Of a stretch of 64,000 nucleotides of DNA, positions 2 to 36,460 are shown piece by piece. The position numbers and the translations under genes were made by a program. Every line of letters begins with the position of its first letter. The first letter of the stretch is position 1. The notes under the pieces are model-generated. The model was not told the origin of the DNA, did no database searches, and worked only from the letters and a program-made list of their open reading frames with translations. The stretch covers positions 4,796 through 68,795 of the forward strand of contig CALJUA010000065.1 in the NCBI GenBank assembly GCA_937975715.1, read 5' to 3'. The stretch is from an uncultured Candidatus Planktophila sp. Its GTDB lineage: Bacteria; Actinomycetota; Actinomycetes; Nanopelagicales; Nanopelagicaceae.

Positions 2-739
2 TTTATTGATGAGGCACAGAAAGTAACTTGGTCTGATGTGGGCGAGATTTCTCGAATTAAAGCTCATGCGGCGGAATTTGGAGCTGACGTAGAGATTATG
101 GAGCTTGTGTCTCAGTTCCGTTGCAATGGTTCTGATGACTACATGGCTTGGCTCGATGGAACTTTAGGCGTACAAGAGAATGTTGATAATTACTTCACCA
201 AAGAAGGTTTTGACTTCCAGATTTTTGATTCTCCTACTGCTCTTCATGATGAAATTCGTAAGAAGAACAAAATCAACAACAAGTCTCGCGTTGTAGCTGG
301 ATACTGCTGGAACTGGGCAAGTAAGAAGGATTCAAAGGCTTTCGACATTGTGATGCCTGAGTTTGGATATAAGGCACAGTGGAATTTGAGTGAGTACGGA
401 AATAAGTGGATTATGGATGCTAAGTCAGTAGATGAGGTTGGTTGCATCCATACCTGCCAGGGATTAGAAGTTGATTACGTAGGCGTCATTATTGGAGATG
501 ATCTAATTGTTCGAAACGGGGAATTAGCCACAGATCCAAGTGCCCGGGCAAAGACCGATAAGTCACTGGCTGGGTATATTAAACAGCGCAAGGAAAATAC
601 TGCCGAGGCTGACGTTAAGGCTGACGAGTTAATTCGAAATACTTATCGCACGCTGATGACCCGAGGAATGAAGGGTTGTTATGTTTACTTTACGAATGAC
701 GAAACTAGAAAATACTTTGAAGCACGGATGCCGAAGTAG
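2..739 (+). CDS. DUF2075 / Schlafen group 3-like helicase-domain protein, C-terminal part (5' truncated by window edge)
   Basis: Frame is open from base 2 (FIDEAQ, Walker B-like). Contains SRVVAGYCWNW, VGCIHTCQGLEVDYVGVIIG and NTYRTLMTRGMKGCYVY, typical of the DUF2075 C-terminus. Confidence 0.85.
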   Translation, partial: FIDEAQKVTWSDVGEISRIKAHAAEFGADVEIMELVSQFRCNGSDDYMAWLDGTLGVQENVDNYFTKEGFDFQIFDSPTALHDEIRKKNKINNKSRVVAGYCWNWASKKDSKAFDIVMPEFGYKAQWNLSEYGNKWIMDAKSVDEVGCIHTCQGLEVDYVGVIIGDDLIVRNGELATDPSARAKTDKSLAGYIKQRKENTAEADVKADELIRNTYRTLMTRGMKGCYVYFTNDETRKYFEARMPK

Positions 740-750
740 TGGGAGCAAGA

Positions 751-1065
751 ATGTCTAAATCAGAATTTGATGTCCTTAAAGAAGAGATTCGGGCGTTTGC
801 GCAGGCGCGACATTGGGAGCAATTCCACACCCCCAAGAATCTAGCGATGGCCATCACGGGTGAGGCAGGGGAACTGGCAGCAGAATTCCAGTGGCTCACG
901 GCTCAACAGTCTGAATTGCAAGCCCTGAGTGACGAGCAACTAGAGGCAATCGCGCTCGAAATAGCGGATGTCCAGATTTATCTTTTAAGGCTTGCAGACA
1001 CACTTGGGGTTGATGTCCCTGCAGTTGTACGTAAGAAGCTTGAAATTAACGAATCAAGATTTTAG
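751..1065 (+). CDS. MazG-like nucleotide pyrophosphohydrolase (dCTP pyrophosphatase-like subfamily)
   Basis: WEQFHTPKNLAMAITGEAGELAAEFQW and EIADVQIYLLRLAD motifs. ATG 751 has GGAG upstream; alternative GTG 739 overlaps the upstream stop. Confidence 0.88.
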   Translation: MSKSEFDVLKEEIRAFAQARHWEQFHTPKNLAMAITGEAGELAAEFQWLTAQQSELQALSDEQLEAIALEIADVQIYLLRLADTLGVDVPAVVRKKLEINESRF

Positions 1066-1144
1066 GGCTGGTCAATTCGCTTCCTTTCCTTCATATTGTC
1101 ACTGGTACGTGATTCACTCATCCAAATAGAGACTAGGGGATCCC

Positions 1145-2332
1145 GTGGATTTTGTACTTATTGTCGGAAGCGTTGCTCTAGGGGTAGCGCTAGCAGAAAA
1201 AGCTGGGTTCAAGAAATCAAGTGGCGCATTCATTGGCCTTTTCTTCAACCTTTTTGGAATCGTTTATCTTGCGGTAAGAGCTAGAAAAAGGAATCAGGCT
1301 GTCGCTATGCCTATTGCTTCCAGGAACGCTGTCAGCGAGAACCCACGAAAGCAATTTTCAGGTTCTCGTTTTGCCCAAGATGGAGCCAAAGGGAACATGT
1401 TTTCATATGCGTCTACAACTTCGGGATCACCAATCGACTCCGATTATGTTGTAGTTGATCTTGAAACTTCAGGGTTAGAACCAGGTAATGCACGGGTTAT
1501 AGAAATTGCTTTGAAGCGTATAGATAAGAATGGAAACACATTAGACGAGTATTCAACTTTGATTAATCCGGGTAACGCTGGCGTAGGAGCCACATTCATT
1601 CATCACATCACTGAAGAGGCTGTAGCTGACGCGCCAACTTTCGCTGAAGTAGCGGATCAGATTATGTTTCGCATGCAAGATGCAGTAATGGTGGCTCATC
1701 ATGCAGCTTTTGAGGATAAGTTCTTATCGGCTGAATTTAGGCGAGCAGGGATCAAAGTTGCTCCAGTGCCCGCTCTCGACACTTTATGGCTTGCGCGAAC
1801 ATCTCTAGATTTACCGAACTTCAAGCAGGAGACACTGCTTAATTTTTACGGAATCCAAGCAAATGATGCCCACACGGCTCTCGGAGATGTTCGTGCCCTT
1901 TCTCAAATTCTGCCAAAACTAGTTTCTTTATCAAGAGAACTTTTTTATAGTGATAGCCCGTGGGCTGAAATTACGCAACCACAATCTTTAATTGCTAAGA
2001 CTCGTGTTTCGAATCTTAAGAAAGGCGATGCAGGTTGGATGAAATCAATCCTTTCGAAGTTACCAGACCACGCATTAGAAGTTTCGTCAGATGTAGAGAT
2101 GGCGTATTTGGATTATCTTGGAATAGCTTTCCAAGATGGAAAATTGATCGGTGACGAGGCAAAAGAGCTAGCAAAGATTGCTGGGCGAGCTGGACTAGGC
2201 GTCAAGCAAGTTGAGTCCTTAAACCAACGATTTTTAGACTCGGTAATCAAGCAAGCCGAGTCTGATGGATCCGTTTCAGTTGAAGAGAAGAAGTTGATTC
2301 AGCAGATAAAGAGCAACTTGGGTCTTCACTAA
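1145..2332 (+). CDS. Membrane-anchored DEDDh 3'-5' exonuclease (DnaQ-like) with TerB-like helical C-terminal region
   Basis: N-terminal hydrophobic hairpin. ExoI VVVDLETSG, ExoII AHHAAFEDKFL, ExoIII HTALGDVRAL. Two DG-x4-E-type helical repeats at the C-terminus (TerB-like, tentative). Confidence 0.75.
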   Translation: MDFVLIVGSVALGVALAEKAGFKKSSGAFIGLFFNLFGIVYLAVRARKRNQAVAMPIASRNAVSENPRKQFSGSRFAQDGAKGNMFSYASTTSGSPIDSDYVVVDLETSGLEPGNARVIEIALKRIDKNGNTLDEYSTLINPGNAGVGATFIHHITEEAVADAPTFAEVADQIMFRMQDAVMVAHHAAFEDKFLSAEFRRAGIKVAPVPALDTLWLARTSLDLPNFKQETLLNFYGIQANDAHTALGDVRALSQILPKLVSLSRELFYSDSPWAEITQPQSLIAKTRVSNLKKGDAGWMKSILSKLPDHALEVSSDVEMAYLDYLGIAFQDGKLIGDEAKELAKIAGRAGLGVKQVESLNQRFLDSVIKQAESDGSVSVEEKKLIQQIKSNLGLH

Positions 2333-2673
2333 ACCCGCACCACACACTTAATAATCGCTTCAGCACTCGCATCTTTGCCTAGTTCTGCTTCGACATTAGT
2401 GGGCATATCTCTCATGGCGCATTGGGCTAGGGTGGTCATCTGCACGGCGATATCTGCCATCCAGTAGAAGGCACCTGGACCGAGTTCTTCAATGAGTTCG
2501 GCAGCTTCTTCAAGGATCTCGTCATTGAACTTCTCTTTGCCGTCGAGATCTTCTTGGAGAACTTTTAAGAGGAAGTCACGAATCTGTGTTGCTTTATCTG
2601 AGGTCTGGCGAGCCTCGATGAGGATCTTCTGGAGTTCGTAATCCATCTTGATATTTCGTAGCCATTTCTTCAT
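2329..2673 (-). CDS. Hypothetical acidic helical protein
   Basis: 114-aa ORF (possible start ATG 2646) whose stop overlaps the convergent exonuclease stop; no recognised motif. Confidence 0.55.
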   Translation of the reverse strand: MKKWLRNIKMDYELQKILIEARQTSDKATQIRDFLLKVLQEDLDGKEKFNDEILEEAAELIEELGPGAFYWMADIAVQMTTLAQCAMRDMPTNVEAELGKDASAEAIIKCVVRV

Positions 2674-2738
2674 ATAGCGAGGCTATGGGGGAGCGGTGAC
2701 AAGTGGTTCTGTCGGGGTAGATAGCTAGACTCTGAAGC

Positions 2739-3406
2739 ATGAGCCTTCGCTTTCGCCGGTCGATGAAGTTAATGCCTGGAGTTCGATTGAACTTCGGTAA
2801 AGATTCGGTTGGTATGTCATTTGGTGTGCCGGGTGCGCGATACACGGTCAATAGCAAAGGTCGTCGCACGGTTTCGATGATCGATTGGTGCGCAAGTATT
2901 TCCTGGGGATTTATCCAGGGGTGCAGATCACCGCGGACATCTTCTCTGTGGGGTCATACACATCTCAGACATTGGGCTTTATCGTCTCTGAGCTCTTGCA
3001 GAAGGAAGAGAAATACGCAGAAGCGATTGCTGTGCTCAATGAGATGAGCCCTGATCAATTGGTGGGAATTTCACTTGCCGATATAGAGATTACATCTGGA
3101 GATTTCGATGGCGCGATTGAGACTACTGAAGATATTGAGAATGAGGATGATGCAACGGCGATGATGTTGGTGCTGCGCGGTATCGCATTTCGCGAGAAGG
3201 GCTTAGATGATGCTGCCCTTGAGTGCTTTAAGCGGGCGATTGCAAAGAAGTCTCGGTCTGAGGGTGTTATTCATCGCGGATTATTTGAAAGAGCGATGAC
3301 CTATAAGAAGCTAGGTAAGAAAGCTGCAGCGAAGAAAGATTTAGAGAAGATCCTTGTTGATGACCCGCAGGCTGCTGGTGTCAATGAGGTGCTGAAGGGG
3401 CTTTAG
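2739..3406 (+). pseudogene. DUF4236-domain / TPR protein split by a frameshift (probable internal deletion)
   Basis: 2739-~2875 encodes RFRRSMKLMPGVRLNFGKDSVGMSFGVPGARYTVNSKGRRTVS (DUF4236). The TPR part (open 2855-3406, ALECFKRA, GLFERAMTYKKLG) is in another frame. Confidence 0.7.
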
Positions 3407-3408
3407 TT

Positions 3409-3434
3409 GCGACATCGCCAACTACTTTAAGTAG
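3409..3434. repeat. 26-bp direct repeat, copy 1 (GCGACATCGCCAACTACTTTAAGTAG)
   Basis: Identical to 4491-4516; contains the inverted repeat CTACTT-T-AAGTAG. Confidence 0.9.
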
Positions 3435-3436
3435 AG

Positions 3437-3471
3437 AAAGAGGGTCCACAGCGAACTGTGAACCCTCTTTT
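3437..3471 (+). terminator. Intrinsic terminator-like hairpin after the TPR gene
   Basis: AAAGAGGGT/ACCCTCTTT outer stem, CACAG-CGAA-CTGTG inner stem, T-run at the 3' end. Confidence 0.65.
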
Positions 3472-3595
3472 CGTCTCCCTGACTAAGGTAAATAAACAGT
3501 ATCAAAATATTTTTAATTCTCAAGCAAGAGTTTTCCACATTGTCGGAAAAATCTTTTCTGCACTCATATCAAACTCTCTAATCTCTGCCGTGCGT

Positions 3596-3669
3596 GTGGA
3601 TGTAGCTCAGCGGATAGAGCGTCTCCATGACTAAGTAGAAGGTCGCGGGTTCAAATCCCGCCATTCATA
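3596..3669 (+). tRNA. tRNA-like element (tRNA-Arg-derived, non-canonical anticodon arm; pseudo-tRNA by standard criteria)
   Basis: Acceptor GTGGATG/CATTCAT, D arm GCTC-AGCGGATA-GAGC, variable loop AGGTC, perfect T arm GCGGG-TTCAAAT-CCCGC. Anticodon arm TCTCC-ATGACTAA-GTAGA has a mismatch and an 8-nt loop. No encoded CCA. Confidence 0.7.
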
Positions 3670-3679
3670 CGTAAACTTG

Positions 3680-3715
3680 ATGGCCCCGGAGTTTGTCGCC
3701 CGGGGCCATTTTGTT
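3680..3715 (+). terminator. Intrinsic terminator after the tRNA-like element
   Basis: ATGGCCCCGG/CCGGGGCCAT 10-bp stem followed by TTTGTT. Confidence 0.8.
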
Positions 3716-3737
3716 CTTCGCGTGCGACCATTGCCAC

Positions 3738-4142
3738 ATGGATAATCGCAAGCTTGGTCGGTTGATGGGTTACATCTTGCTAGGCGCAGGAGTGGGGCAC
3801 TTTGTATTTCCTAGCGCGTTGGATTCGATTGTGCCCAAGGCGTTGCCAGGAGATCCTCGTATCTACACATACTTAAGCGGTGTGGCCGAGCTTGCTATTG
3901 GTGCAGCGTTATTGGCTCCGTTGTCGAAGAAGGTGCTGGGCAAGCCGGTAAAGCTGTGGGGTGCGTATGGCGCCTTTGCGTTGTTCTTGGCTGTTTATCC
4001 TGCCAATATCAACATGGCAGTGCAGTGGAGCGATCGCCCGATGCCAGAACCGTTGATTGCATATGCGCGGCTGCCATTTCAGTTCTACTTCTTATGGGCT
4101 GCTTGGAAGTTAATGAAAGCTATTCAACGCCGAACGGCGTAA
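3738..4142 (+). CDS. DoxX-like membrane protein
   Basis: Four hydrophobic segments; HFVFP..LDSIVP..LP, SGVAEL and AVYPANINMA motifs of actinobacterial DoxX-type proteins. Confidence 0.75.
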   Translation: MDNRKLGRLMGYILLGAGVGHFVFPSALDSIVPKALPGDPRIYTYLSGVAELAIGAALLAPLSKKVLGKPVKLWGAYGAFALFLAVYPANINMAVQWSDRPMPEPLIAYARLPFQFYFLWAAWKLMKAIQRRTA

Positions 4143-4291
4143 GTTCGCGGGAACTATGTATTGGGCTTTATCGTGCGCGCATCAGGGCCGCTGGGGCGTT
4201 ATGGATACAAGTGGGTTGCAGGACATCGCAATTCGTGGCTGATTAGAACTGCCACGAAGATTATCGAGCGCTCGCTTTAAAGGCTGCTTTT

Positions 4292-4322
4292 AAAACAAAA
4301 ACCCGCAGATCGCTCTGCGGGT
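4292..4322 (-). terminator. Intrinsic terminator (stronger for a leftward transcript)
   Basis: ACCCGCAGA-TCGC-TCTGCGGGT stem preceded on + by AAAACAAAA, i.e. a U-tract on the minus strand. Confidence 0.7.
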
Positions 4323-4490
4323 ATTTGCCTCATGCAGGGGTACCAAGTCTTGAAGTATTCAATACTCCCATTACGTCAATTGGCCTCACGACGTCTAGTG
4401 AGGCCAATTGATCGATCGATACCATCGAGTGACTAAGTCGAGGCATTTCTAAATATATTGTTTCCAGATTAGTTTTCAAGATTTTTAGTC

Positions 4491-4516
4491 GCGACATCGC
4501 CAACTACTTTAAGTAG
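4491..4516. repeat. 26-bp direct repeat, copy 2
   Basis: Identical to 3409-3434. Confidence 0.9.
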
Positions 4517-4593
4517 CGCAAGTTCATTTGAGGAACTCAAAGTAGTTCGGGTTTGTTATTGCTTTTATATAACTTCGCCGTACATTGGTAATT

Positions 4594-4866
4594 ATGAACG
4601 TAGAAGAAATCACGATTGATACCGAGTATCAACTTGCATACGCCTATCTTGCTTCAGGAAAAGTGGCTAGAACAATTGAGGTCAATCAAACTATTAATAT
4701 TGACGTGAAAGAAAACGGAGAACCATTCGGCGTCGAATTTCTTTGTTTTGATTCACTGAATCACACTAAGGACGCTCTCCTTGCAGAAAACAATCAACTC
4801 ACTGATTCAGAACTTGAAGCAGTTCTTGTCGCGCAGGAAAAGGTGCGTGAGCGCCTAGCGGACTGA
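4594..4866 (+). CDS. DUF2283-domain protein
   Basis: [21 protein letters not shown]...[17 protein letters not shown] pattern; 3' end overlaps the lexA 3' end. Confidence 0.7.
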
Positions 4867-5499
4867 GCGAAGAACTGCAGTGACTTTGCCGAGGATTTCG
4901 CAATGAGTTCCGTCGATTGGCGCGAAGTCATCGTTGGCTGGCAATAGCCAGACGGTGCCGTTCTTCTTTGAGAAAGTTTTTACAGTTGCTTCGCCATCAA
5001 TCATTGCGGCAACGATTTCTCCGTTGTTGGCATCTTTCTGCTGACGGATGACGACGTAATCGCCATCGCAGATTGCGGCGTTGATCATGGACTCGCCCTT
5101 GACCTTCAACATAAAGAGATCGCCAGAACCCACGAGTGATTCGGGCAGTGGCATTGTCTCTTCGACCATCTGGTCGGCGGTGATAGGTACACCGGCTGCG
5201 ATAGAACCAACAAGAGGGATGTATCGAGTCTTATCGACGGGGGTGGTGTTGCCGAGTTCGCTGTCGGGGACGACGACCTCGAGGGCGCGGCCAGAATTGT
5301 CGCCGCGGCGGATGAGGCCTTTTTCTTCAAGGATATCGAGCTGGTATTTGACCGATGCTGATGAGGTCAGGCCGACGGCGGCACCGATTTCACGCATTGT
5401 GGGCGCATAGCCCTGGCTGTCGACGGAAGATTTGATGAAGTCGAGGATCTCGACCTGGCGGCCGGTGAGCTCGCCATCTGGGGATATCTTTTTGGCCAT
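4855..5499 (-). CDS. lexA: SOS repressor LexA
   Basis: [32 protein letters not shown] cleavage site, GESM catalytic Ser, TVK catalytic Lys. Start set at ATG 5499. Confidence 0.97.
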
Positions 5500-5530
5500 A
5501 CACAGATGGTTCCACACCCTGTGGAAAAAA

Positions 5531-5546
5531 TCAAACATATGTTCGA
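5531..5546. promoter_or_regulatory. SOS box (1 mismatch)
   Basis: TCAAAC-ATAT-GTTCGA versus actinobacterial consensus TCGAAC-N4-GTTCGA, just upstream of lexA. Confidence 0.8.
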
Positions 5547-5589
5547 AAAAATGTTGCACTTGTCGGTGGTCGGGGGTATTGTTCTTTTA

Positions 5590-5605
5590 TCGAACAAGCG
5601 TTCGA
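5590..5605. promoter_or_regulatory. SOS box (perfect)
   Basis: TCGAAC-AAGC-GTTCGA between divergent lexA and LysM genes. Confidence 0.9.
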
Positions 5606-5644
5606 AAACCTTCCCCAAGGTTTGTACATGGCAGGAGCAAGACC

Positions 5645-6010
5645 ATGAGCACACTAACAATCAACACAGTAGGGCCAAGAAACGTTGATTTTAAAGGCTT
5701 TTCAGCCAATCCGTCCGGACGAATTGTTCTCAATCGCCGTGGCCGACTAGCTCGTACCCTCGTGGTTCTTTCTCTCGCTATCGTGGCAGCTTCAGTTGCT
5801 GGCGGACAAGCTGGCGCTGACACAAGCAAGACCCAGGTGACCTCCAGCCACTTCATCACAGTCACTGTGGCGCCAGGAGATACCGTCTGGTCTCTGGCCA
5901 ATCGCGTCGACTCTCGCGATCCAGGTGCTCTGGTGGCATCCATCATCGAGATCAATGGCCTCGGCAATGGCGATCTGACTGCCGGCCAGAAGATTCGTAT
6001 TCCTCTTTAA
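5645..6010 (+). CDS. LysM-domain membrane protein, SOS-induced division inhibitor type (YneA/ChiZ/DivS-like)
   Basis: LNRRGR + transmembrane segment + LysM (VTVAPGDTVWSLA...LTAGQKIRIP). Divergent from lexA; GGAG SD before ATG 5645. Confidence 0.85.
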   Translation: MSTLTINTVGPRNVDFKGFSANPSGRIVLNRRGRLARTLVVLSLAIVAASVAGGQAGADTSKTQVTSSHFITVTVAPGDTVWSLANRVDSRDPGALVASIIEINGLGNGDLTAGQKIRIPL

Positions 6011-6025
6011 TACCCCGATCTAGTG

Positions 6026-6061
6026 TTAGCCTTTACCTATGGTTACTAAGGTAAAGGCTAA
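6026..6061. promoter_or_regulatory. 13-bp perfect inverted repeat over the antitoxin promoter/start (putative TA operator)
   Basis: TTAGCCTTTACCT-N10-AGGTAAAGGCTAA covers the -10 (TAGCCT 6027-6032) and ATG 6039. Confidence 0.7.
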
Positions 6062-6350
6062 GAAGAAGGCGGTTCCAGCCAAGAGAGTACCTGCCTTGAA
6101 AAAACAGCGCCGCGGCCGTTCATCCACATCTCGCATTAGCACAAAGCATCAAGTGACGATTCCCGTAGAAGTATTACGCAATTCAAATTTAGCGATCGGT
6201 GATGAAGTGGAAATAACAGTAAATGAAAATGGTGCTGTGGAAGTCAAAAAAGTAGCGCCATTTAATCCTTTTCAGGCGTTGGCAGATGCAGCAGGGGATA
6301 CCTATATTGGTTTCGATTTGGAGAAAGAACGCGCCGAATCATGGGATTAG
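6039..6350 (+). CDS. AbrB/MazE/SpoVT-family antitoxin (VapB-like)
   Basis: SRISTKHQVTIPVEVLRNSNLAIGDEVEI swapped-hairpin motif; overlaps the PIN gene. Confidence 0.85.
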   Translation: MVTKVKAKKKAVPAKRVPALKKQRRGRSSTSRISTKHQVTIPVEVLRNSNLAIGDEVEITVNENGAVEVKKVAPFNPFQALADAAGDTYIGFDLEKERAESWD

Positions 6351-6718
6351 TTCTTCTTGATTCCTCAGTATTAATAGCGTTGCTCAATCCAACAGATTTT
6401 CACCACAAGTCGGCTCTAAATTCGAGAACGCAGAATGATCGGTTCATCATCTCTTCCATTTCAATTACAGAGCTGATGCCAAGAGCAATAAAAGATGGAA
6501 TCGCGGACGGAATTTGGAACGCGCTAAACGTTGTCGCCAAAGAGATCGTTGATGTTGATTCTGAAATGGCCTTGGGTGCGGCACGCATTCGTGCGCTCAC
6601 GGGGGCACGAACTCCTGACGCAATTATTTCAGCCACCGCTCAAGCGCTAGGCGCCGAGCTCTGGACCTTTGATGCCAAGCTCGCAAAGGCGACCCCAGGC
6701 GCTCGCCTCCTCGCCTAA
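6341..6718 (+). CDS. vapC: PIN-domain toxin (VapC-like)
   Basis: LLDSSVLI, SITEL and TPDAIISATA...LWTFD PIN motifs. Confidence 0.88.
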   Translation: MGLVLLDSSVLIALLNPTDFHHKSALNSRTQNDRFIISSISITELMPRAIKDGIADGIWNALNVVAKEIVDVDSEMALGAARIRALTGARTPDAIISATAQALGAELWTFDAKLAKATPGARLLA

Positions 6719-6800
6719 GGGCAGGGTGGGCTGGAAAATTCTCCCGGGCGTGTCGCACACGCTTTCAACGAGACAACTCTCGAGATTTAGTTTAGAGTTC

Positions 6801-6816
6801 CCACTATATATAGGGG
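6801..6816. promoter_or_regulatory. NrdR box
   Basis: CCACTATATATAGGGG resembles the acaCwAtATaTwGtg consensus; upstream of nrdR-nrdJ. Confidence 0.65.
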
Positions 6817-6871
6817 TTAGAAGCGCAAAAACTTCCATTACTAGGGTTTCTAGTGTAGTTTTCGCAATTCC

Positions 6872-6887
6872 CCACTACATGTAGTTG
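6872..6887. promoter_or_regulatory. NrdR box
   Basis: CCACTACATGTAGTTG, quasi-palindrome upstream of nrdR. Confidence 0.7.
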
Positions 6888-6924
6888 GATGAAAGACTCA
6901 GTATTTCGAGAGGAGACACGCCGC

Positions 6925-7440
6925 ATGATCTGCCCATTTTGCCGCCATGACGATTCGCGCGTGATCGACTCTCGCCCCGTAGAAGATGGCACCCAGATTC
7001 GCCGTCGCCGCGAGTGCCCAGAATGTGGCCAGCGCTTCTCAACCCAGGAAGTCGCCCTGCTCAACATCATTAAGCGCTCGGGTGCAACCGAACCATTTAG
7101 CCGCGAGAAGGTCCTCGTAGGCGTCCGTAAGGCATGCCAGGGCCGTCCGGTTAATGAGGATGATTTAGTTCTCTTGGCACAGCGCGTAGAAGAGACTCTG
7201 CGCGCCACAGGTCAGGCAGAGATCGAGGCCAATGAGGTCGGAATGGCGATCCTTGCGCCACTCCGCGAACTCGATGAGGTCGCCTACCTGCGATATGCCT
7301 CTGTCTATCGTAACTTTGCCTCCTTAGAAGATTTTGAAGGAGAGATCGCACTTCTCCGCGCTCTACCTTCAAATAGCAGTGAAAATAGCAAGACCCCTTC
7401 CTCCGCCAGCAAGACAACAACTAGCTCTGCAAAGAGTTAA
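6925..7440 (+). CDS. nrdR: Transcriptional repressor NrdR
   Basis: [12 protein letters not shown]...[16 protein letters not shown] zinc ribbon plus ATP cone ([17 protein letters not shown]). Confidence 0.97.
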
Positions 7441-7517
7441 TTGGCCCCTTGCGCCCAAAAACTAAATACAGCAAAAGCAATAACCACCAGAAAAATTAGA
7501 AGACGGGAAAAAGAGAT

Positions 7518-10340
7518 ATGTCAGATACGGTCATCAATCGACCAACATCGAAGGTTAAGGGCGGAAAAGGCTTAACCATCGAACGCATCTACACAAACGA
7601 AGGCATCCACCCTTATGACGAGGTCAAGTGGGATCGCCGCGATGTTGTGCAGCAGAACTGGAAGACAGGCGAAGTTGTTTTCGAACAACGCGGCGTCGAG
7701 TTCCCAGATTTCTGGTCTGTTAACGCATCGACAATCGTTACAACAAAGTATTTCCGTGGCGCAGTCGGTGCAGATAACCGCGAGTGGTCACTCAAGCAGG
7801 TAATCGATCGTGTTGTCCTTACATATGTAAAGGCTGGCAAGGATTTCGGTTACTTCGCAACAGATAAGGATGCAACAATCTTCGAGCACGAGCTCACACA
7901 TATGTTGTTGCACCAGATCTTCTCATTCAACTCACCAGTGTGGTTCAACGTTGGAACAGCAGCACCTCAGCAGGTTTCTGCATGCTTCATCTTGTCTGTT
8001 GACGACACAATGGATTCAATCCTTAACTGGTACCGCGAAGAAGGAATGATCTTTAAGGGCGGTTCTGGTGCCGGTCTTAACCTTTCTCGTATTCGTTCAT
8101 CAAAGGAACTTCTCAAGTCAGGTGGAACAGCTTCTGGTCCTGTTTCATTTATGCGCGGTGCGGATGCATCTGCAGGAACAATCAAATCTGGTGGCGCAAC
8201 CCGTCGCGCTGCAAAGATGGTTGTTCTCGATGTAGATCACCCAGATATCGAAGAATTCATCGAGACAAAGGTTTCAGAAGAGCAGAAGATTCGCGCACTC
8301 CGCGACGCTGGCTTCGACATGGACCTCGGTGGCAAGGACATCATCTCTGTTCAGTATCAGAACGCTAATAACTCAGTCCGTGTTTCAGATGAGTTCATGC
8401 GCGCATACGAGAACGGCACAGAGTTCGGTCTTAAGGCACGTTCAACTGGTGAAGTAATCGAGACAACAGATGCTCGCAAACTCTTCCGCAAGATGGCAGA
8501 AGCTGCATGGGCATGTGCTGATCCTGGAATCCAGTACGACGACACCATCAACGATTGGCACACAAACCCAGAGTCAGGTCGCATCAATGCGTCAAACCCT
8601 TGCTCTGAGTACATGTCACTCGATAACTCATCATGTAACTTGGCTTCACTTAACTTGATGAAGTTCCTCAAGGCTGATGGTTCATTCGATGCAAAGACAT
8701 TCGGCAAGGCAGCAGAGATGATCATTACAGCAATGGATATCTCAATCTGCTTCGCAGACTTCCCAACAGAGGCGATTGGCGTAACAACACGTGCATACCG
8801 TCAGCTCGGAATCGGTTATGCAAACCTCGGTGCACTTCTTATGGCATCAGGTCTTGCATACGACTCAGAGGGTGGACGCGCACTTGCTGGTGCAATCACA
8901 TCACTCATGTCAGGTATCACCTACAAGCGCTCAGCAGAACTCGCTGGCATTGTTGGTCCATACGAAGGCTTCGCACCAAACGCTGCAGCACATGCACGTG
9001 TAATGCGTAAGCACGCTGCTGCATCATCTGCTGCAAAGCACGAGACAACTCTCGATATCGATGTATGGGCAGAGGCGAACAAGGCATGGGATGCATGTCT
9101 CTCAACCGGCGATAAGAACGGATGGCGCAACGCGCAGATCTCGGTTCTTGCACCAACAGGAACAATCGGTTTGATGATGGATTGCGATACAACAGGTATC
9201 GAGCCAGACTTCTCACTCGTTAAGTTCAAGAAGCTCGTCGGTGGCGGTTCAATGCAGATTGTGAACCAGACAGTTCCACAGGCACTTCGTAAGCTTGGTT
9301 ATGCAGAAGAGACAATCGAAGCAATCGTTGAGTTCATTGCAGCTAACGGTCACGTTATCGACGCTCCTGGTCTTAAGACAGAGCACTACGACGTATTCGA
9401 TTGCGCACTTGGTGCACGATCAATCGCTCCAATGGGCCACGTCCGCATGATGGCTGCATGCCAGCCATTCTTGTCAGGTGCAATCTCAAAGACAGTGAAC
9501 CTCCCAGAGGATGCAACTGTTGAAGAGGTAGAAGAGGTTTACTACCAGGGATGGAAGCTCGGCCTTAAGGCTCTCGCTGTATATCGCGATAACTGCAAGG
9601 TTGGTCAGCCACTCTCAGACGGTAAAGCGAAGAAGAAGGACGTTGAAGTTGTAGAGGTTGCAAAGCCTGTACGTAAGCGCCTTCCAAAGTCACGCCCTGC
9701 AACAACAACTTCATTCTCTGTTGGTGGCGCAGAGGGTTACATGACTGCAGGAGCATATGAAGATGGCGCACTTGGCGAGGTCTTCTTGAAGCTCGGTAAG
9801 CAGGGATCAACCCTCGCAGGTGTGATGGATGCATTCTCAATCGCAGTATCAATTGGTCTTCAGTACGGAGTACCTCTTGAGACATTCGTAGAGAAGTTCA
9901 CAAACCTTCGCTTCGAGCCATCAGGTATGACAGATGACAAGGATGTTCGCATGGCACAGTCCATGATGGATTACATCTTCCGTCGCCTCGCACTTGATTA
10001 CCTTCCATTCGAACAGCGTTCAGCAATGGGTCTCTACACAGTCGCAGAGCGCGAGCAGGCACTGAACAATGGTGGCGAGTACGCACCTGTTGCGAGTGTT
10101 GATACCCCAAAAGCACCTGTAGCTGCGGCGGCTCCTGCGGTTGCTCCAAAGGCTGAGGTAAAGATTGAAGCAAAGCCTGCAGCTGCAGTAGCTCCAACAA
10201 TCGGATCTTCATCTGATCTTCTTGAGTCCATGGGAATCAAGTCAGATGCTCCGCTATGTATGACATGTGGTGTGAAGATGCGTATGTCAGGTGCATGCTT
10301 CGTATGCGAAGGTTGCGGCAACACATCAGGTTGCAGCTAA
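7518..10340 (+). CDS. nrdJ: Vitamin B12-dependent (class II) ribonucleotide reductase
   Basis: FNSPVWFN, SACFI, NPCSE, APTGTI motifs and C-terminal TSCPD/zinc ribbon; follows nrdR. Confidence 0.96.
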   Translation: MSDTVINRPTSKVKGGKGLTIERIYTNEGIHPYDEVKWDRRDVVQQNWKTGEVVFEQRGVEFPDFWSVNASTIVTTKYFRGAVGADNREWSLKQVIDRVVLTYVKAGKDFGYFATDKDATIFEHELTHMLLHQIFSFNSPVWFNVGTAAPQQVSACFILSVDDTMDSILNWYREEGMIFKGGSGAGLNLSRIRSSKELLKSGGTASGPVSFMRGADASAGTIKSGGATRRAAKMVVLDVDHPDIEEFIETKVSEEQKIRALRDAGFDMDLGGKDIISVQYQNANNSVRVSDEFMRAYENGTEFGLKARSTGEVIETTDARKLFRKMAEAAWACADPGIQYDDTINDWHTNPESGRINASNPCSEYMSLDNSSCNLASLNLMKFLKADGSFDAKTFGKAAEMIITAMDISICFADFPTEAIGVTTRAYRQLGIGYANLGALLMASGLAYDSEGGRALAGAITSLMSGITYKRSAELAGIVGPYEGFAPNAAAHARVMRKHAAASSAAKHETTLDIDVWAEANKAWDACLSTGDKNGWRNAQISVLAPTGTIGLMMDCDTTGIEPDFSLVKFKKLVGGGSMQIVNQTVPQALRKLGYAEETIEAIVEFIAANGHVIDAPGLKTEHYDVFDCALGARSIAPMGHVRMMAACQPFLSGAISKTVNLPEDATVEEVEEVYYQGWKLGLKALAVYRDNCKVGQPLSDGKAKKKDVEVVEVAKPVRKRLPKSRPATTTSFSVGGAEGYMTAGAYEDGALGEVFLKLGKQGSTLAGVMDAFSIAVSIGLQYGVPLETFVEKFTNLRFEPSGMTDDKDVRMAQSMMDYIFRRLALDYLPFEQRSAMGLYTVAEREQALNNGGEYAPVASVDTPKAPVAAAAPAVAPKAEVKIEAKPAAAVAPTIGSSSDLLESMGIKSDAPLCMTCGVKMRMSGACFVCEGCGNTSGCS

Positions 10341-10356
10341 TCTCTAGCTGATTTAC

Positions 10357-10394
10357 CAAGAACCCCGTCTCAATTGAGGCGGGGTTCTTGCTTT
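10357..10394 (+). terminator. Intrinsic terminator after nrdJ
   Basis: CAAGAACCCCGTCTC-AATT-GAGGCGGGGTTCTTG followed by CTTT. Confidence 0.8.
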
Positions 10395-10433
10395 GATTCG
10401 CACCTTTTGCCGACAGGCAATATATTTAAGGCA

Positions 10434-10557
10434 TTGTTATCGGGGTCGATGTAATTTCGAACCGGCGGTTATAGTCCGCGACCCGCACGCAGCCAGTGTG
10501 CGGTTGACTCAGTGAAATTCTGAGACCGACGGTTAAAGTCCGGATGAGAGATAACGA
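10434..10557 (+). ncRNA. FMN riboswitch (RFN element)
   Basis: CGGGG...ACCGGCGGT..AGTCCGCGA...GTGAAATTC...CCGACGGTTAAAGTCCGGATGAGAG, closed by TTGTTATC/GATAACGA; upstream of ribD. Confidence 0.95.
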
Positions 10558-10649
10558 TTGCGCACTGCGCACCCATTGTGGGGTGCGTTGGCGTTTTCTT
10601 TTGCATACCCCCGATAACTCGTGCAACACCAAACGAGATAGGGGATGAG

Positions 10650-11651
10650 ATGTTAAATATCGCAGATGCATATTCGCATCTTCATTCCCTCTGCCTCTCT
10701 GTCCTCGGTAATAGCGCACCGAATCCCAATGTCGCAGCTGCAATTTATGCAGCAGATGGATCTTTGATCGCTGATGGCGTTCATAATCGCCAGGTATCTA
10801 CCGATCATGCAGAAGTTGTTGCACTGAAGAAAGCTGGGGCAGCTGCTCGCGGGGCAACCATTGTTGTTTCGCTTGAGCCATGCAATCACGCTGGAACAAC
10901 TGGTCCATGTGTTGATGCAATTATCGAAGCCGGCATTGTGCGCGTTATCTTTGCAGTGAAGGATCCCAACCCTGTTGCAGCAGGCGGGGCAGAACGTTTG
11001 AAATCTGCTGGAATCGCTGTTGAATTTGTCGAAAGCAGCGAACTTCGCGATGCGCAAGGTGCCTGGTTGCACCGCATCGCAACTGGTCGTCCTTACATAA
11101 TCTGGAAGGTGGCAACGACTCTCGATGGTCGCATCGCAGCCAGCGATGGCACATCACAGTGGATCTCATCGGATGCATCACGATCAGATGTACAGAAGCT
11201 GCGCGCACAATCAGATGCAATTCTGATCGGCACCGGCACCGCACTTGCTGATAATCCAACGTTGCGGCCACGCATTGATGGCGCCTCCAATCCGCTTCGT
11301 ATCGTGATGGGTAGCCGTGATGTACCGGCGGATTTCAATCTCAATGACGGAATTAGCCAGACGATCTTTCTGAAGAGTCGTTCAGTTGATGAACTCTATA
11401 AAGCCTTGGATTACCTACCGGTCAATCAAGTACTTGTTGAGGCGGGGCCAACTCTGGGAAGTGCTCTCTTTGCAGCAAGTGTCATTGATGAAGTTGTTAT
11501 CTACCAAGCGCCTAAAGCACTTGGTAGCGGTCGCACCTGGTTGGAAGCAATTGGTGTGGCAACAATTAGCGATGCTGCGAAGTTTGAGTTGCTATCTACC
11601 GAACAAATCGGTGTTGATTTGAAGTTCCGATATAGAGTGGAGAAGCGCTGA
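10650..11651 (+). CDS. ribD: Bifunctional riboflavin deaminase/reductase
   Basis: PNPNV, HAE, SLEPCNH..TTGPC deaminase motifs; TLDGRIA, SQWIS, DNPTL reductase motifs. Confidence 0.95.
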
Positions 11652-12256
11652 TGTTTACTGGATTGGTAGCCGAGCTTGGCAAAGTCACTGCGATTTCTCG
11701 CGGTGAAACATCATCGGTGCTTACCGTCTTTGCACCAGCCCTCACGCCAGAGCTCTCGATCGGTGATTCGATTGCAGTAAATGGCACATGTTTAACAGCA
11801 ACCTCGCTGACGGCAGATTCATTTACTGCTGATGTGATGGTGCAGACCTTGTCGCTGACTTCACTTGGAAAATTGGAAGAGGGATCAGCGGTTAATCTGG
11901 AGCTCGCAGCACAAATGGATATGCGGATGGGCGGTCACATCGTGCAGGGACACGTGGATGGCGTTGCCACCGTTGTTTCGCGCACACCGGGGGAGAAGTG
12001 GGAGCAATGTGTAATTGCAGTCCCTGCCGATCTCTCTCGGTACATCGTGAACCAGGGTTCAATCTGCGTTGATGGTGTTTCACTTACTGTGGGCGAGATC
12101 AACGATGAGAATAATCAGGTAACGCTTTGGTTGATTCCGGAGACTCTTGCCAAGACCAATCTTTCACTTAAATCACCTGGCGATATCGTTAACATCGAAG
12201 TCGATATCTTGGCGAAGTACGTCGAGCGCCTTATCTCAAAGGGCGGTAATCGATAA
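11651..12256 (+). CDS. ribE: Riboflavin synthase (alpha subunit)
   Basis: MFTGLV N-terminus, [22 protein letters not shown]. Confidence 0.96.
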
Positions 12257-13449
12257 TGTCGATCACAGATGCGTTAGCTGATTTTGCAGCAGGAAAGTTC
12301 CTGATTGTTACCGACGACGAATCCCGCGAGAACGAGGGCGACCTCATTGTTCTGGCAGAGAAGGTCACTGCTGAGCAAACTGCATTTATGGTCCGCCATA
12401 CAACTGGAATTCTCTGCGTTGCTATCGATAAGGCAACAGCGCGCAGACTTGAGTTGCCGATGATGTATGAGAGCAATCAAGATAAGCGCAAGACTGCATT
12501 TACTGTCTCCGTTGATGCCGTTGCTGGTCTCACCACCGGAGTCAGCGCAACTGAGCGCACAACCACTATTCGCACACTTGCTTCAAGAACAGCAACTGCG
12601 AAGGACTTTGTCCGTCCAGGACACATCTTCCCGTTGGTGGCACATGAAGAAGGTCTTGCTGGCCGTGGTGGACATACCGAAGCTGGACTCGCGTTGGCTC
12701 AGCTTGTGGGTGGAACACCTGCTGCGCTGCTCTCTGAGATCGTTAACGATGATGGATCGATGGCTCGTGGCGAAGCGCTAGAAAAGTTTGCACGGGATCA
12801 TCAGATTAAGACAATCACTATTGAGGAATTAACAAAGCATTGGCAAGAAAATTATCAGCAAGGTGCGCAGGCGGTAGAGCTCAATTGGAGTGCTGTGCAG
12901 TTGCCGGAAGGCGCATGGCAGTTAGCAACATTTCCAGCGCTGAAGGCGCGTGATCATGTGATTGCCCGCTTCGGTGGCGGAACTCATCAACCGCTCGTTC
13001 GAGTTCACTCTGAATGTTTTACCGGTGATGTATTGGGCTCACTTCGTTGCGACTGCGGAGACCAGCTCGCGCTATCAAAGAAATTAATATCCGAACACGG
13101 CTTTGGTTACATCATCTACGTCCGCGATCACGAAGGCCGTGGCGTTGGACTTGCCGAAAAACTGAAGGCATATCAACTGCAGGATGAAGGATTAGATACG
13201 GTAGAAGCGAATGTGAAGCTCGGCCATCCAATCGATGCCCGCGAGTGGGACGATGTCATTGAGATATTGCATAGCCTTCAACTGCAGGACTTCACTCTGC
13301 TTACCAATAATCCAGAGAAGGTTGCCGTGCTTGTTGCTGCAGGATTTGCTGTGACCCAGAAGAACTTGGCGGCAGAGATTCATCCATTTAATCAAAGATA
13401 TATCGAGACCAAGCGAGCAAAGCTCGGACATGAAAGAGAGAATGCATAA
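12256..13449 (+). CDS. ribBA: Bifunctional DHBP synthase / GTP cyclohydrolase II
   Basis: [23 protein letters not shown]; [37 protein letters not shown]. Confidence 0.95.
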
Positions 13450-36329: not shown

Positions 36330-36450
36330 TTCGCCAGGTCACGAGTTTCGACATCAAGCCCCGGCTAGTCGAACGGCAACCCTCCACCGCGGTGGGGTGC
36401 TCCGGGTGACGACCAGGTTCGCGGCACAAGTGCGGCGAGCAAGTGCGTGA
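36330..36450 (+). ncRNA. SAM-IV riboswitch
   Basis: CAGGTCACGAGT...GCCCCGGCT...CGGCAACCCTCC...GGGGTGCTCCGGGTGACGACCAGG...GCAAG; upstream of metX, with TAGAAT -10 at 36324-36329. Confidence 0.9.
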
Positions 36451-36460
36451 AGGAAGTTTC

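What the first reader, a model, noticed from the sequence alone, without database searches (positions are those of the whole stretch)
3579..3715. tRNA-like RNA with a broken anticodon arm but intact promoter, D/T arms and terminator
Seen: the -10 hexamer TAATCT (3579-3584) puts the start near 3591, exactly where an extended 12-bp acceptor helix begins (TGCGTGTGGATG / CATTCATACGTA, with G-U pairs). D and T arms are perfect. The anticodon arm has a C-U mismatch and an 8-nt loop (AUGACUAA). There is no CCA, and a strong terminator follows. The AGCGGAUA D loop (A20), the ..CUAA-G loop end and A73 resemble tRNA-Arg(YCU). Inference: the decay is concentrated in the anticodon arm while the expression signals are kept. 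This fits a maintained non-decoding tRNA mimic, such as a decoy for anticodon nucleases or a regulatory RNA. A helicase-MazG pair and a PIN toxin lie within 3 kb. The simpler alternative is a recent pseudogene or integration scar.
Basis: partly seen in the sequence, partly recalled or inferred. Interest (0 to 1): 0.62.

Follow-up and report, generated by a model that had tools for sequence, protein, structure and literature searches.

The report
tRNA-shaped RNA with its own antisense partner
The odd "tRNA" is a well-kept member of an undescribed RNA family in abundant freshwater acI Actinobacteria: a tRNA-shaped RNA whose anticodon loop pairs with its own terminator loop, and which has a matching small antisense RNA gene next to it.

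Summary
Window 3591-3718 (+) holds a tRNA-like gene with a 12-bp acceptor helix, perfect D and T arms, an 8-nt anticodon loop and a 3' hairpin.

It is not a pseudogene. A covariance model finds more than 90 distinct full-length copies in Ca. Planktophila/Nanopelagicaceae genomes, at one flexible chromosomal region, and every helix covaries. The housekeeping tRNA-Val(GAC) lies elsewhere and does not vary across the seven complete genus genomes checked.

- The anticodon loop is complementary to the loop of the 3' hairpin, and the two covary: GAC/GUC changes to AAC/GUU in 9 copies, and position 37 shows U-A in 43 and G-C in 30.
- About 90 nt upstream on the minus strand (~3489-3436) lies a small RNA gene. 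It has an extended -10 promoter, a 17-nt 5' seed complementary to positions 24-40 of the tRNA-like RNA, and a terminator. The seed tracks the variable anticodon stem copy by copy; 69 of 86 copies have it.

A DnaA-box-like 9-mer lies between the two promoters.

Best reading: a non-decoding tRNA mimic controlled by antisense RNA. Its cellular role is unknown; an RNA toxin-antitoxin-like role is one possibility.

The parts
3436..3489 (-). Predicted antisense small RNA, about 54 nt. It consists of a 5' seed, then a terminator hairpin, then a U-rich tail. The ends are inferred, not mapped.
   Evidence: The promoter, seed and terminator are conserved in this order in 69 of 86 copies.
3439..3468 (-). 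Terminator hairpin of the small RNA: 12 bp with a UUCG loop on the minus strand. It probably also serves as a two-way terminator for the upstream TPR gene.
   Evidence: One pair is U.G on the minus strand and would be a C.A mismatch on the plus strand. Family-wide, this region folds more stably as minus-strand RNA in 50 of 64 copies, Wilcoxon p = 7e-8.
3472..3488 (-). Seed of the small RNA, CCUUAGUCAGGGAGACG, complementary to positions 24-40 of the tRNA-like RNA (3620-3636).
   Evidence: 15 of 17 positions pair, with a duplex energy of -22.9 kcal/mol. It is the best match in the whole genome; every other site has 3 or more mismatches. The identity block ends sharply after position 40 across the family. 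Cognate matches average 9.0 of 11 variable positions, against 4.8 for non-cognate pairs.
3496..3504 (-). Extended -10 promoter of the small RNA, TGATACTGT on the minus strand.
   Evidence: TGNTANNNT lies 3-10 nt before the seed in 52 of 69 copies and TANNNT in 67 of 69. Control windows give 0-2 and 4-28.
3531..3539 (.). DnaA-box-like 9-mer TTTTCCACA between the two divergent promoters.
   Evidence: TTWTNCACA is found at a fixed 58-59 nt before the leader in 43 of 90 copies. A match within 2 mismatches of TTATCCACA is found in 79 of 90. The same 9-mer clusters on contigs C82 and C156 of this genome, which look like oriC. Binding by DnaA is an inference.
3579..3584 (+). -10 hexamer TAATCT of the tRNA-like gene.
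   Evidence: A TAnnTT consensus sits at a fixed position; its last T is conserved in 93% of copies and lies 6 nt before the leader.
3591..3673 (+). tRNA-shaped body. It comprises the leader (3591-3595), the cloverleaf (3596-3669) and the trailer (3669-3673). Leader and trailer pair, extending the acceptor helix to 12 bp.
   Evidence: ARAGORN and Rfam both call a tRNA here. The extension is unique among the 40 predicted tRNAs of this genome. Four of the five extra pairs show changes on both sides in the family.
3622..3639 (+). Anticodon arm: stem TCTCC/GTAGA with one C-U mismatch, and loop AUGACUAA (3627-3634, with GAC at 3629-3631). It is the target of both the 3' hairpin loop and the small-RNA seed.
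3680..3718 (+). 3' hairpin with stem 3680-3689/3700-3709 and loop AGUUUGUCGC (3690-3699, with GUC at 3695-3697), followed by a T run (3709-3718). It acts as terminator and as the partner of the anticodon loop.
   Evidence: All 10 stem pairs covary while the loop is conserved. The loop covaries with anticodon-loop positions 33, 34 and 37.

Best explanation
Window 3436-3718 is a two-gene RNA module.

Shown by comparing about 90 copies:
- (a) A roughly 125-nt plus-strand RNA starts near 3591. It folds into a canonical tRNA L-shape with an intact elbow.
- Its acceptor end is closed by a covarying 5-bp leader/trailer extension.
- Its anticodon loop is complementary to, and covaries with, the loop of its own 3' terminator hairpin.
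- (b) A small minus-strand RNA gene lies divergently upstream. Its 5' 17 nt are complementary to the 3' strand of the D stem, the 5' strand of the anticodon stem and the anticodon loop of the neighbouring tRNA-like RNA. This seed changes in step with that hypervariable arm from copy to copy.
- (c) A DnaA-box-like 9-mer sits at a fixed distance from the tRNA-like promoter.

Inferred:
- The tRNA-like RNA is not processed into a decoding tRNA. It acts as a tRNA mimic through its conserved parts: the elbow, the T arm and the invariant A35 and C36, which are the main ValRS identity nucleotides.
- The anticodon arm is a lock. The intramolecular loop-loop pairing masks it.
- The antisense RNA starts pairing at the loop, as in known kissing-loop antisense systems. 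It displaces the hairpin loop, opens the anticodon and D stems, and so inactivates or destabilises the mimic.
- Divergent seed/arm pairs keep co-resident copies from cross-reacting. That pattern is typical of toxin-antitoxin or incompatibility-type modules in flexible islands.

The cellular target of the mimic is unknown.
For: Family and distribution:
- Model R1 finds full-length matches of 100-149 bits in about half of 301 Nanopelagicaceae genomes. Ordinary tRNAs reach only about E = 1e-14.
- There are 1-5 copies per genome, always in the same chromosomal neighbourhood: 0.40-0.52 Mb on the plus strand, or the mirror position.
- Record titles name Ca. Planktophila, Nanopelagicaceae or acI.

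Not the housekeeping tRNA:
- Seven complete genomes of the genus carry tRNA-Val(GAC) with a normal loop in the Gly-Cys-Val cluster. The four whose sequences I printed are identical.

Structure (92 distinct sequences):
- 94.6% of cells form standard pairs, and 33 of 42 pairs change on both sides. None of 500 shuffles reaches the observed values.
- The leader/trailer helix covaries.

Loop-loop pairing:
- Position 34: G-C 79, A-U 9, unpaired 2.
- Position 37: U-A 43, G-C 30, unpaired 17.
- Position 33: U-G 49, U-A 29, C-G 9.

Antisense gene:
- The identity block covers positions 24-40 and ends sharply.
- The cognate arm is the best or joint-best match for 52 of 66 seeds.
- An extended -10 is present in 52 of 69 copies and TANNNT in 67 of 69, against near zero in control windows.
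- Strand asymmetry from G.U pairs favours the minus strand in 50 of 64 copies, p = 7e-8. The 3' hairpin favours the plus strand in 55 of 64.
- Terminator hairpins with U tails are seen in nearly all copies.
- No conserved ORF is present.

This window's copy has every part.
Against: - There is no transcript evidence.
- The simple σ70 promoter and terminator scan finds nothing here.
- 17 of 86 copies lack a recognisable cognate seed. This includes most copies with an AAC anticodon.
- In this window's copy the loop-loop pairing is weak: a U.U at position 37, and only -2.4 kcal/mol for the isolated loops.
- Position 37 is unpaired with the hairpin loop in 17 of 92 copies.
- The covariation counts include related sequences and are not independent events.
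- Whether the loop-loop contact is within one molecule or between two cannot be told from sequence.
- No host factor, and no toxic or regulatory effect, is shown.
- The invariance of A35 and C36 could simply reflect a need for a strong pairing core.
Confidence: 0.68

Rival explanations
1. It is a working decoding tRNA. It could be an extra tRNA-Val(GAC)-type isoacceptor or, with its 8-nt loop, a four-base (AGUC) decoder. It would be processed by RNase P and a 3' nuclease and receive CCA.
For: The cloverleaf and elbow are canonical, and Rfam tRNA scores 53 bits. A35, C36 and a mostly A73 match ValRS identity. ARAGORN reads a 4-base anticodon here and in L003 and L007. Some copies encode ACCA.
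Against: - Seven complete genus genomes carry a normal tRNA-Val(GAC) elsewhere, identical in the four printed.
- Position 37 is U in most copies.
- Position 34 changes to A together with the hairpin loop in 9 copies, so pairing fixes the triplet, not decoding.
- The 12-bp closed acceptor helix covaries and is unique among 40 tRNAs.
- The acceptor and anticodon stems are hypervariable between species, and the gene is absent from about a quarter of complete genomes.
- Most copies have 7-nt loops, so four-base decoding is not a family trait.
Confidence: 0.06
2. It is a tRNA pseudogene or a scar of island integration. The upstream partial copy would then be a displaced att fragment left by a tyrosine integrase.
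For: The copies lie in a flexible region. In genome G093 an 11.8-kb defence island with an integrase is inserted about 25 nt downstream of one copy and is flanked by a 12-bp direct repeat. The upstream block is formally a direct repeat of part of the gene.
Against: - Conservation and covariation across more than 90 copies rule out neutral decay.
- The repeated part is internal (positions 24-40), lies only about 90-150 bp away, and encloses no cargo.
- It is framed by a conserved minus-strand extended -10 and by a terminator whose G.U pairs work only on the minus strand.
- The one island mapped uses a different repeat, outside the gene.
- Tandem modules occur with no cargo between them.
Confidence: 0.06
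3. It is a decoy or sensor for anticodon-loop nucleases, either phage-encoded or from defence systems. The antisense RNA would be an accessory.
For: The context is a defence-rich flexible island. The tRNA shape is conserved while the stems vary.
Against: The anticodon loop is masked by pairing, and its sequence is not that of any host tRNA loop (U37). No nuclease gene co-occurs consistently. A decoy does not explain why a copy-specific antisense partner is needed.
Confidence: 0.1
4. It is a cis-acting leader or attenuator. The tRNA-like fold and the terminator would control read-through into the downstream gene.
For: The terminator loop pairs with an upstream loop. In this window a same-strand membrane-protein gene starts 17 nt after the T run.
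Against: The downstream genes differ between copies and are often on the opposite strand. For example, the homologous membrane protein in L003 is inverted. Tandem modules follow each other directly.
Confidence: 0.04

Closest known systems
Kissing-loop antisense RNA control systems (ColE1 RNA I/RNA II, R1 CopA/CopT, IS10 RNA-OUT/RNA-IN). This comparison is from my own knowledge.
   Same: A short RNA pairs through its 5' end or loop with the loop of a stem-loop in the partner, and pairing then spreads down one strand of the stem. Specificity lies in a few variable loop and stem nucleotides, which gives mutually non-reacting variants.
   Different: The two RNAs here are not transcribed from opposite strands of the same DNA. 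The complementary segment is a separate duplicated block about 90-150 bp away. The target is a tRNA-shaped non-coding RNA, not an mRNA or a replication primer. The target also carries an internal competitor loop.
Type VIII toxin-antitoxin pairs, in which the toxin is an RNA and the antitoxin an antisense RNA (for example SdsR/RyeA; PMC8610362)
   Same: Two adjacent small RNA genes with complementarity and no protein. Distribution is patchy and multi-copy, in flexible regions.
   Different: Toxicity is untested. The candidate toxin is tRNA-shaped. The genes are divergent and do not overlap.
Bacterial and viral tRNA mimics: YrlA/Y RNA tRNA-like domain (PMC4201824), valine-accepting viral tRNA-like structures (PMC7749636), and the tmRNA tRNA-like domain
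   Same: The tRNA elbow is conserved without a decoding role. As in the valine-accepting viral structures, the two main ValRS identity nucleotides are kept in an anticodon-like loop.
   Different: This is a full cloverleaf of tRNA-Arg-like sequence. It has no Ro-binding helix and no pseudoknotted acceptor, and its acceptor end is closed. Rfam's models for these families do not match: Tymo_tRNA-like scores 12.7 bits against a gathering score of 40.
T-box leader / tRNA recognition (from my own knowledge)
   Same: A codon-like triplet in a hairpin loop pairs with a tRNA anticodon.
   Different: Here the 'codon' loop and the 'tRNA' are on one molecule. There is no T-box sequence or antiterminator. 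The only T-box-like element in the genome precedes ileS.

Membership tests
Canonical decoding tRNA | Cloverleaf with conserved D and T loops, giving the L-shape | tested here: met
   ARAGORN and Rfam RF00005 at 53.1 bits. G18, G19, T54-C56, U8 and a G15-C48 pair are all present.
Canonical decoding tRNA | 7-nt anticodon loop with U33 and a purine at position 37 | tested here: not met
   This copy has an 8-nt loop, AUGACUAA, with U after the GAC triplet. Across the family, position 37 is U in about two thirds of copies.
Canonical decoding tRNA | 7-bp acceptor stem with unpaired leader and trailer, so that both ends can be processed | tested here: not met
   The helix is 12 bp. The extension is unique among the 40 predicted tRNAs of this genome and covaries in the family.
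Canonical decoding tRNA | Anticodon fixed by decoding, and the gene conserved between close species | tested here: not met
   Position 34 changes together with the hairpin loop. The stems are hypervariable, whereas the real tRNA-Val(GAC) is identical in the four genus genomes printed. The gene is absent from several complete genomes.
Type VIII (RNA-RNA) toxin-antitoxin | Two adjacent small non-coding RNA genes with complementarity | tested here: met
   No conserved ORF is present.
Type VIII (RNA-RNA) toxin-antitoxin | One RNA is toxic and the other relieves the toxicity | not testable with these tools
   This needs expression experiments.
cis-antisense kissing-loop systems (CopA/CopT type) | Complementary loop, or a 5' end that pairs with a loop | tested here: met
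   The seed is complementary to the anticodon loop plus the 5' stem strand. In many copies the seed itself forms a hairpin that presents the complementary loop.
cis-antisense kissing-loop systems (CopA/CopT type) | The two RNAs are transcribed from opposite strands of the same DNA segment | tested here: not met
   The complementary block is a separate copy 92-128 nt upstream of the tRNA-like gene, with divergent promoters.
Displaced tRNA fragment at an island end (att site) | The fragment is a terminal part of the tRNA gene, lies at the far end of an integrated element, and has no expression signals of its own | tested here: not met
   The block is internal (positions 24-40) with no cargo between the copies. 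It has a conserved promoter and a strand-specific terminator.
Known Rfam RNA families other than tRNA (YrlA, viral tRNA-like structures, T-box, known small RNAs) | Match at or above the family's gathering score | tested here: not met
   Only RF00005 passes. All other hits in 3400-3780 lie far below their thresholds.

The most novel reading that the evidence does not exclude
The module is an all-RNA toxin-antitoxin or abortive-infection-type system built on a tRNA scaffold. The closed-ended tRNA mimic would jam a tRNA-handling factor such as ValRS, RNase P or the ribosome once its anticodon arm is unmasked. The short antisense RNA would be its copy-specific antidote. The DnaA box would tie the balance between the two promoters to replication state. 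Diversifying seed/arm pairs would reflect competition between island-borne modules, or an arms race with phages.
Probability: 0.2. Interest if true: 0.9.

Novelty: new variant of a known kind. Interest (0 to 1): 0.78.

Why it matters
acI/Nanopelagicaceae are among the most abundant freshwater bacteria and have very small genomes with few known regulators. Even so, many of them keep 1-5 copies of this roughly 280-bp, protein-free module.

If the reading is right, three points follow:
- It adds a new class of bacterial tRNA mimic.
- It is an example of an RNA whose anticodon loop is locked by its own terminator loop.
- It is a natural set of mutually non-reacting RNA-RNA pairs.

It also warns annotators that 'tRNA-Val(GAC)', 'tRNA-???' and four-base-anticodon calls in these genomes are not decoding tRNAs. 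It offers a testable link between DnaA and small RNA control.

Tried and rejected
- Assembly error, or the real tRNA-Val(GAC) with an indel. Rejected: relatives carry the same family with varied arms, and seven complete genus genomes have a separate normal tRNA-Val(GAC), identical in the four I printed. This MAG lacks that tRNA only because the Gly-Cys-Val cluster is cut at the end of contig C80.
- Phage origin. No family member was found in IMG/VR contigs. GenBank phages match only through ordinary tRNA-Arg genes.
- A conserved protein partner. None was found.
- A small peptide encoded on the minus strand (type I toxin). ORFs there are random in length, position and sequence.
- A valS T-box as the target of the mimic. 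The genome has only one weak T-box-like element, and it is upstream of ileS.
- Other targets of the small-RNA seed in this genome. None is better than chance.
- Known Rfam families for either RNA. None matched.
- Literature. Four full-text searches found no description of such a module.
- Earlier findings of this scan. Nothing was returned.
- RNA-seq evidence.
- The simple promoter and terminator scan was negative.

Full report
**1. The observation**

- TAATCT is at 3579-3584.
- Leader TGCGT (3591-3595) plus acceptor strand GTGGATG pairs with CATTCAT plus ACGTA (3662-3673), giving 12 bp.
- The D and T arms are perfect.
- The anticodon stem TCTCC/GTAGA has one C-U mismatch, and the loop is the 8-nt AUGACUAA.
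- No CCA is encoded.
- A 10-bp hairpin (3680-3709) is followed by a T run.

ARAGORN reports 'tRNA-???' with the 4-base anticodon GACT. Rfam tRNA scores 53.1 bits. Among the 40 tRNAs that ARAGORN finds in this 1.69-Mb, 165-contig assembly, only this one has a leader/trailer extension: 5 pairs, against 0-2 for the rest. A simple consensus scan finds no promoter or terminator here.

**2. It belongs to a large family and is not the housekeeping tRNA**

BLAST against relatives showed homologues that include the 3' hairpin. ARAGORN labels them tRNA-Val(GAC), 'GACG' or '???'.

A covariance model built from 16 copies (A1, R1) finds full-length matches of 100-149 bits in roughly half of 301 genomes of the same taxonomic family, in at least 10 genera. 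Ordinary tRNAs reach only about E = 1e-14. Record titles identify the hosts as Ca. Planktophila, Nanopelagicaceae or acI Actinobacteria.

Copies number 1-5 per genome. In complete genomes they always lie in the same neighbourhood: 0.40-0.52 Mb on the plus strand, or the mirror position. In this window that region lies just upstream of lexA and nrdR. About a quarter of complete genomes of the genus have no copy. None was found in viral contigs or GenBank phages.

Seven complete genomes of the genus carry a normal tRNA-Val(GAC) (loop UUGACAU) in the Gly-Cys-Val cluster. The four whose sequences I printed are identical. This MAG lost that tRNA at a contig end. The body of the family resembles tRNA-Arg.

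**3. Structure of the tRNA-like RNA**

I counted pairs on 92 distinct copies (A4).
- 94.6% of cells form standard pairs, and 33 of 42 pairs change on both sides.
- None of 500 shuffles reaches the observed values, and versions with the pairing partner slid by 1-3 columns fall to 34-50% paired.
- The D stem hardly varies, and the T stem covaries.
- The first four acceptor pairs and all five anticodon-stem pairs are hypervariable but stay paired.
- The five leader/trailer pairs covary: for example C-G changes to U-A in 10 copies, and G-C to A-U in 5.
- All ten pairs of the 3' hairpin covary, while its loop, (A/G)GUUnGUC(G/A)C, is conserved.

The plus-strand -10 (TAnnTT) sits at a fixed position. 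Its last T is 93% conserved and lies 6 nt before the leader, so transcription should start where the extended helix begins.

**4. The anticodon loop pairs with the terminator loop**

The hairpin loop is the reverse complement of anticodon-loop positions 33-38:

| Anticodon-loop position | Pairs with the hairpin loop |
|---|---|
| 34 | G-C 79, A-U 9, C-G 1, unpaired 2 |
| 37 | U-A 43, G-C 30, unpaired 17 |
| 33 | U-G 49, U-A 29, C-G 9 |
| 35 (A-U) | never varies |
| 36 (C-G) | never varies |

The loops were unpaired in the model, so this signal does not come from fitting the alignment to the model. The 'anticodon' is therefore set by RNA-RNA pairing and not by a codon.

The invariance of exactly A35 and C36, the main ValRS identity nucleotides (my own knowledge), is an unexplained extra constraint. 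In this window's copy the match is GACUAA against UUUGUC, with a U.U at position 37. Whether the contact is within one molecule cannot be told from sequence. A rough estimate of the geometry (12+5 bp arm, 9-nt linker, 10-bp hairpin) allows it.

**5. A cognate antisense small RNA gene upstream**

Every typical copy carries, 92-128 nt upstream, a partial copy of its own positions 24-40. Identity falls sharply after position 40: column identity drops from 0.73 to 0.40. 69 of 86 copies have this block at 10 or more of 15 positions.

At the 11 variable positions the block matches its own arm at 9.0 on average, against 4.8 for other arms. The cognate arm is best or joint best for 52 of 66 blocks.

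Read on the minus strand, the block is the 5' end of a small RNA gene.
- The conserved 'TAGCAC' motif is an extended -10, TGNTANNNT. It lies 3-10 nt before the block in 52 of 69 copies, and TANNNT is there in 67 of 69. Three control windows give 0-2 and 4-28.
- The block is followed by a short hairpin, the motif (G)UUACAG, and a GC-rich hairpin with a U tail.
- The 70 nt beyond the block fold more stably as minus-strand RNA in 50 of 64 copies (p = 7e-8). The 3' hairpin of the tRNA-like gene prefers the plus strand in 55 of 64.
- In many copies the seed itself forms a hairpin that presents the complementary loop.
- No conserved ORF is present, and no Rfam family matches.

In this window:
- Extended -10 TGATACTGT at 3504-3496.
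- Seed CCUUAGUCAGGGAGACG at 3488-3472. It pairs at 15 of 17 positions with the arm (-22.9 kcal/mol). This is the best site in the genome; all others have 3 or more mismatches.
- Terminator at 3468-3439, with a UUCG loop and a U.G pair that would be C.A on the plus strand.

**6. The DnaA-box-like site**

TTATCCACA or a close variant lies at a fixed 58-59 nt before the leader. The strict form TTWTNCACA is present in 43 of 90 copies, and a match within 2 mismatches in 79 of 90. The variable position is the one that is free in the DnaA-box consensus. The same 9-mer clusters on two contigs of this genome that look like oriC.

In copies with a short spacer the box lies 4-10 nt from the antisense -10. 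In copies with a long spacer (this one included) a second, weaker box-like motif often lies about 26 nt further on. Binding by DnaA is an inference.

**7. Context**

No protein family is a consistent neighbour; the most frequent is next to 16 of 92 copies.

In this window the flanks are as follows:
- On one side: two DUF2075/Schlafen-type helicases, a MazG-like protein, an RNase T-like exonuclease and a TPR protein.
- On the other side: a small membrane protein, a DUF2283 protein, LexA, VapBC, NrdR and NrdJ.

In genome G093 an 11.8-kb island sits between two copies. It encodes an SNF2 helicase, an HNH nuclease, a PLD-SNF2 protein, an Eco57I-like methylase and a tyrosine integrase. It is flanked by a 12-bp repeat that starts about 25 nt after one copy's terminator. 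The modules therefore mark an island hot spot, but the repeat that was mapped lies outside the RNA genes.

**8. Interpretation**

Shown by comparison:
- a tRNA-shaped RNA with a closed acceptor end;
- an anticodon loop complementary to its own terminator loop;
- a co-varying antisense partner gene;
- a fixed DnaA-box-like site.

Inferred:
- The RNA is a non-decoding tRNA mimic that acts through its conserved elbow and A35/C36.
- The anticodon arm is a lock, masked by the hairpin loop and opened or destroyed by the antisense RNA.
- Pairing starts at the loop, as in CopA/CopT- or RNA-OUT/RNA-IN-type systems (my own knowledge).

The following features are what toxin-antitoxin or incompatibility modules show:
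- hypervariable but matched seed/arm pairs;
- tandem modules;
- modules with two seeds (L026, L128);
- patchy presence;
- location in a flexible island.

RNA-only pairs of this kind are classed as type VIII (PMC8610362). I put about 0.2 on that specific role. The rival explanations are addressed in their own sections.

**9. Limits**

- Transcript ends, processing, binding and any phenotype are predictions.
- The covariation counts are not corrected for relatedness between sequences.
- Four literature searches found no description of the module, but subscription journals are not covered.

Noticed in passing
window 10432-10559 (+) and 36337-36451 (+): FMN riboswitch (104.5 bits) and SAM-IV riboswitch (108.1 bits), both well above the Rfam gathering scores.
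   Followed up: no
window 2-2332 (+), extending left on contig C65 to about 1722: Two divergent DUF2075/Schlafen-group-3-type helicase genes, a MazG-like gene, and a 395-aa protein with an N-terminal membrane segment and an RNase T-like exonuclease domain. This looks like a defence-type cluster. No integrase is seen in the first 9 kb of the contig.
   Followed up: partly
window 4855-10340: Core genes follow the module: lexA on the minus strand, a LysM protein, a MazE-like/PIN (VapBC) pair at 6039-6718, then nrdR and a class II ribonucleotide reductase.
   Followed up: partly
genome contigs C16, C37, C104, C144, C115, C141: ARAGORN calls short (73-76 nt, no long variable arm) 'tRNA-Leu' genes with anticodons CAA and UAA, plus tRNA-Ile(UAU) and tRNA-Gly(ACC). 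These are unusual for Actinobacteria. They could come from phage or contaminant contigs (estimated contamination 4%) or be further odd tRNA-like genes.
   Followed up: no
genome contig C80, end (107907-107979): tRNA-Gly(GCC) is cut by the contig end. In complete relatives it is followed by tRNA-Cys and the normal tRNA-Val(GAC), so their absence from this MAG is an assembly gap.
   Followed up: yes
L182 (G093:C1:470001-490000) 508-12294: An 11.8-kb island encoding an SNF2 helicase, an HNH nuclease, a PLD-SNF2 helicase, an Eco57I-like methylase and a tyrosine integrase. It is flanked by the 12-bp direct repeat AATTAAGAGTTA, which starts about 25 nt after the terminator of a tRNA-like copy.
   Followed up: partly
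L012 ~1440-1485; L040 ~350-400; L087 ~5620-5675: A subgroup of copies (several with anticodon AAC) has no antisense block. Instead it has an inverted repeat, CCTAAGTCGG-N9-CTGACTTAGG, overlapping the plus-strand -10. The repeat contains the same TGACT/AGTC motif.
   Followed up: no
L026 ~1300-1395, L128 ~4005-4100, L093, L030 (minus strand): Some modules carry two antisense seeds in tandem, each with its own extended -10-like motif. In L026 the tRNA-like arm matches the nearer seed; in L128 it matches the farther one.
   Followed up: partly
genome contig C144:41824-41982 (-): A weak T-box-like element (36.4 bits, below the cut-off of 93) lies directly upstream of ileS. It is the only such element in the genome.
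   Followed up: partly
L002 551-1408 (-), L004, L006, L015, L017 and others: A conserved protein of about 230-290 aa with no Pfam match (it contains the motif ...FHETGRT...GVRFRVG...) lies next to 11 of 92 modules, mostly upstream and divergent.
   Followed up: partly
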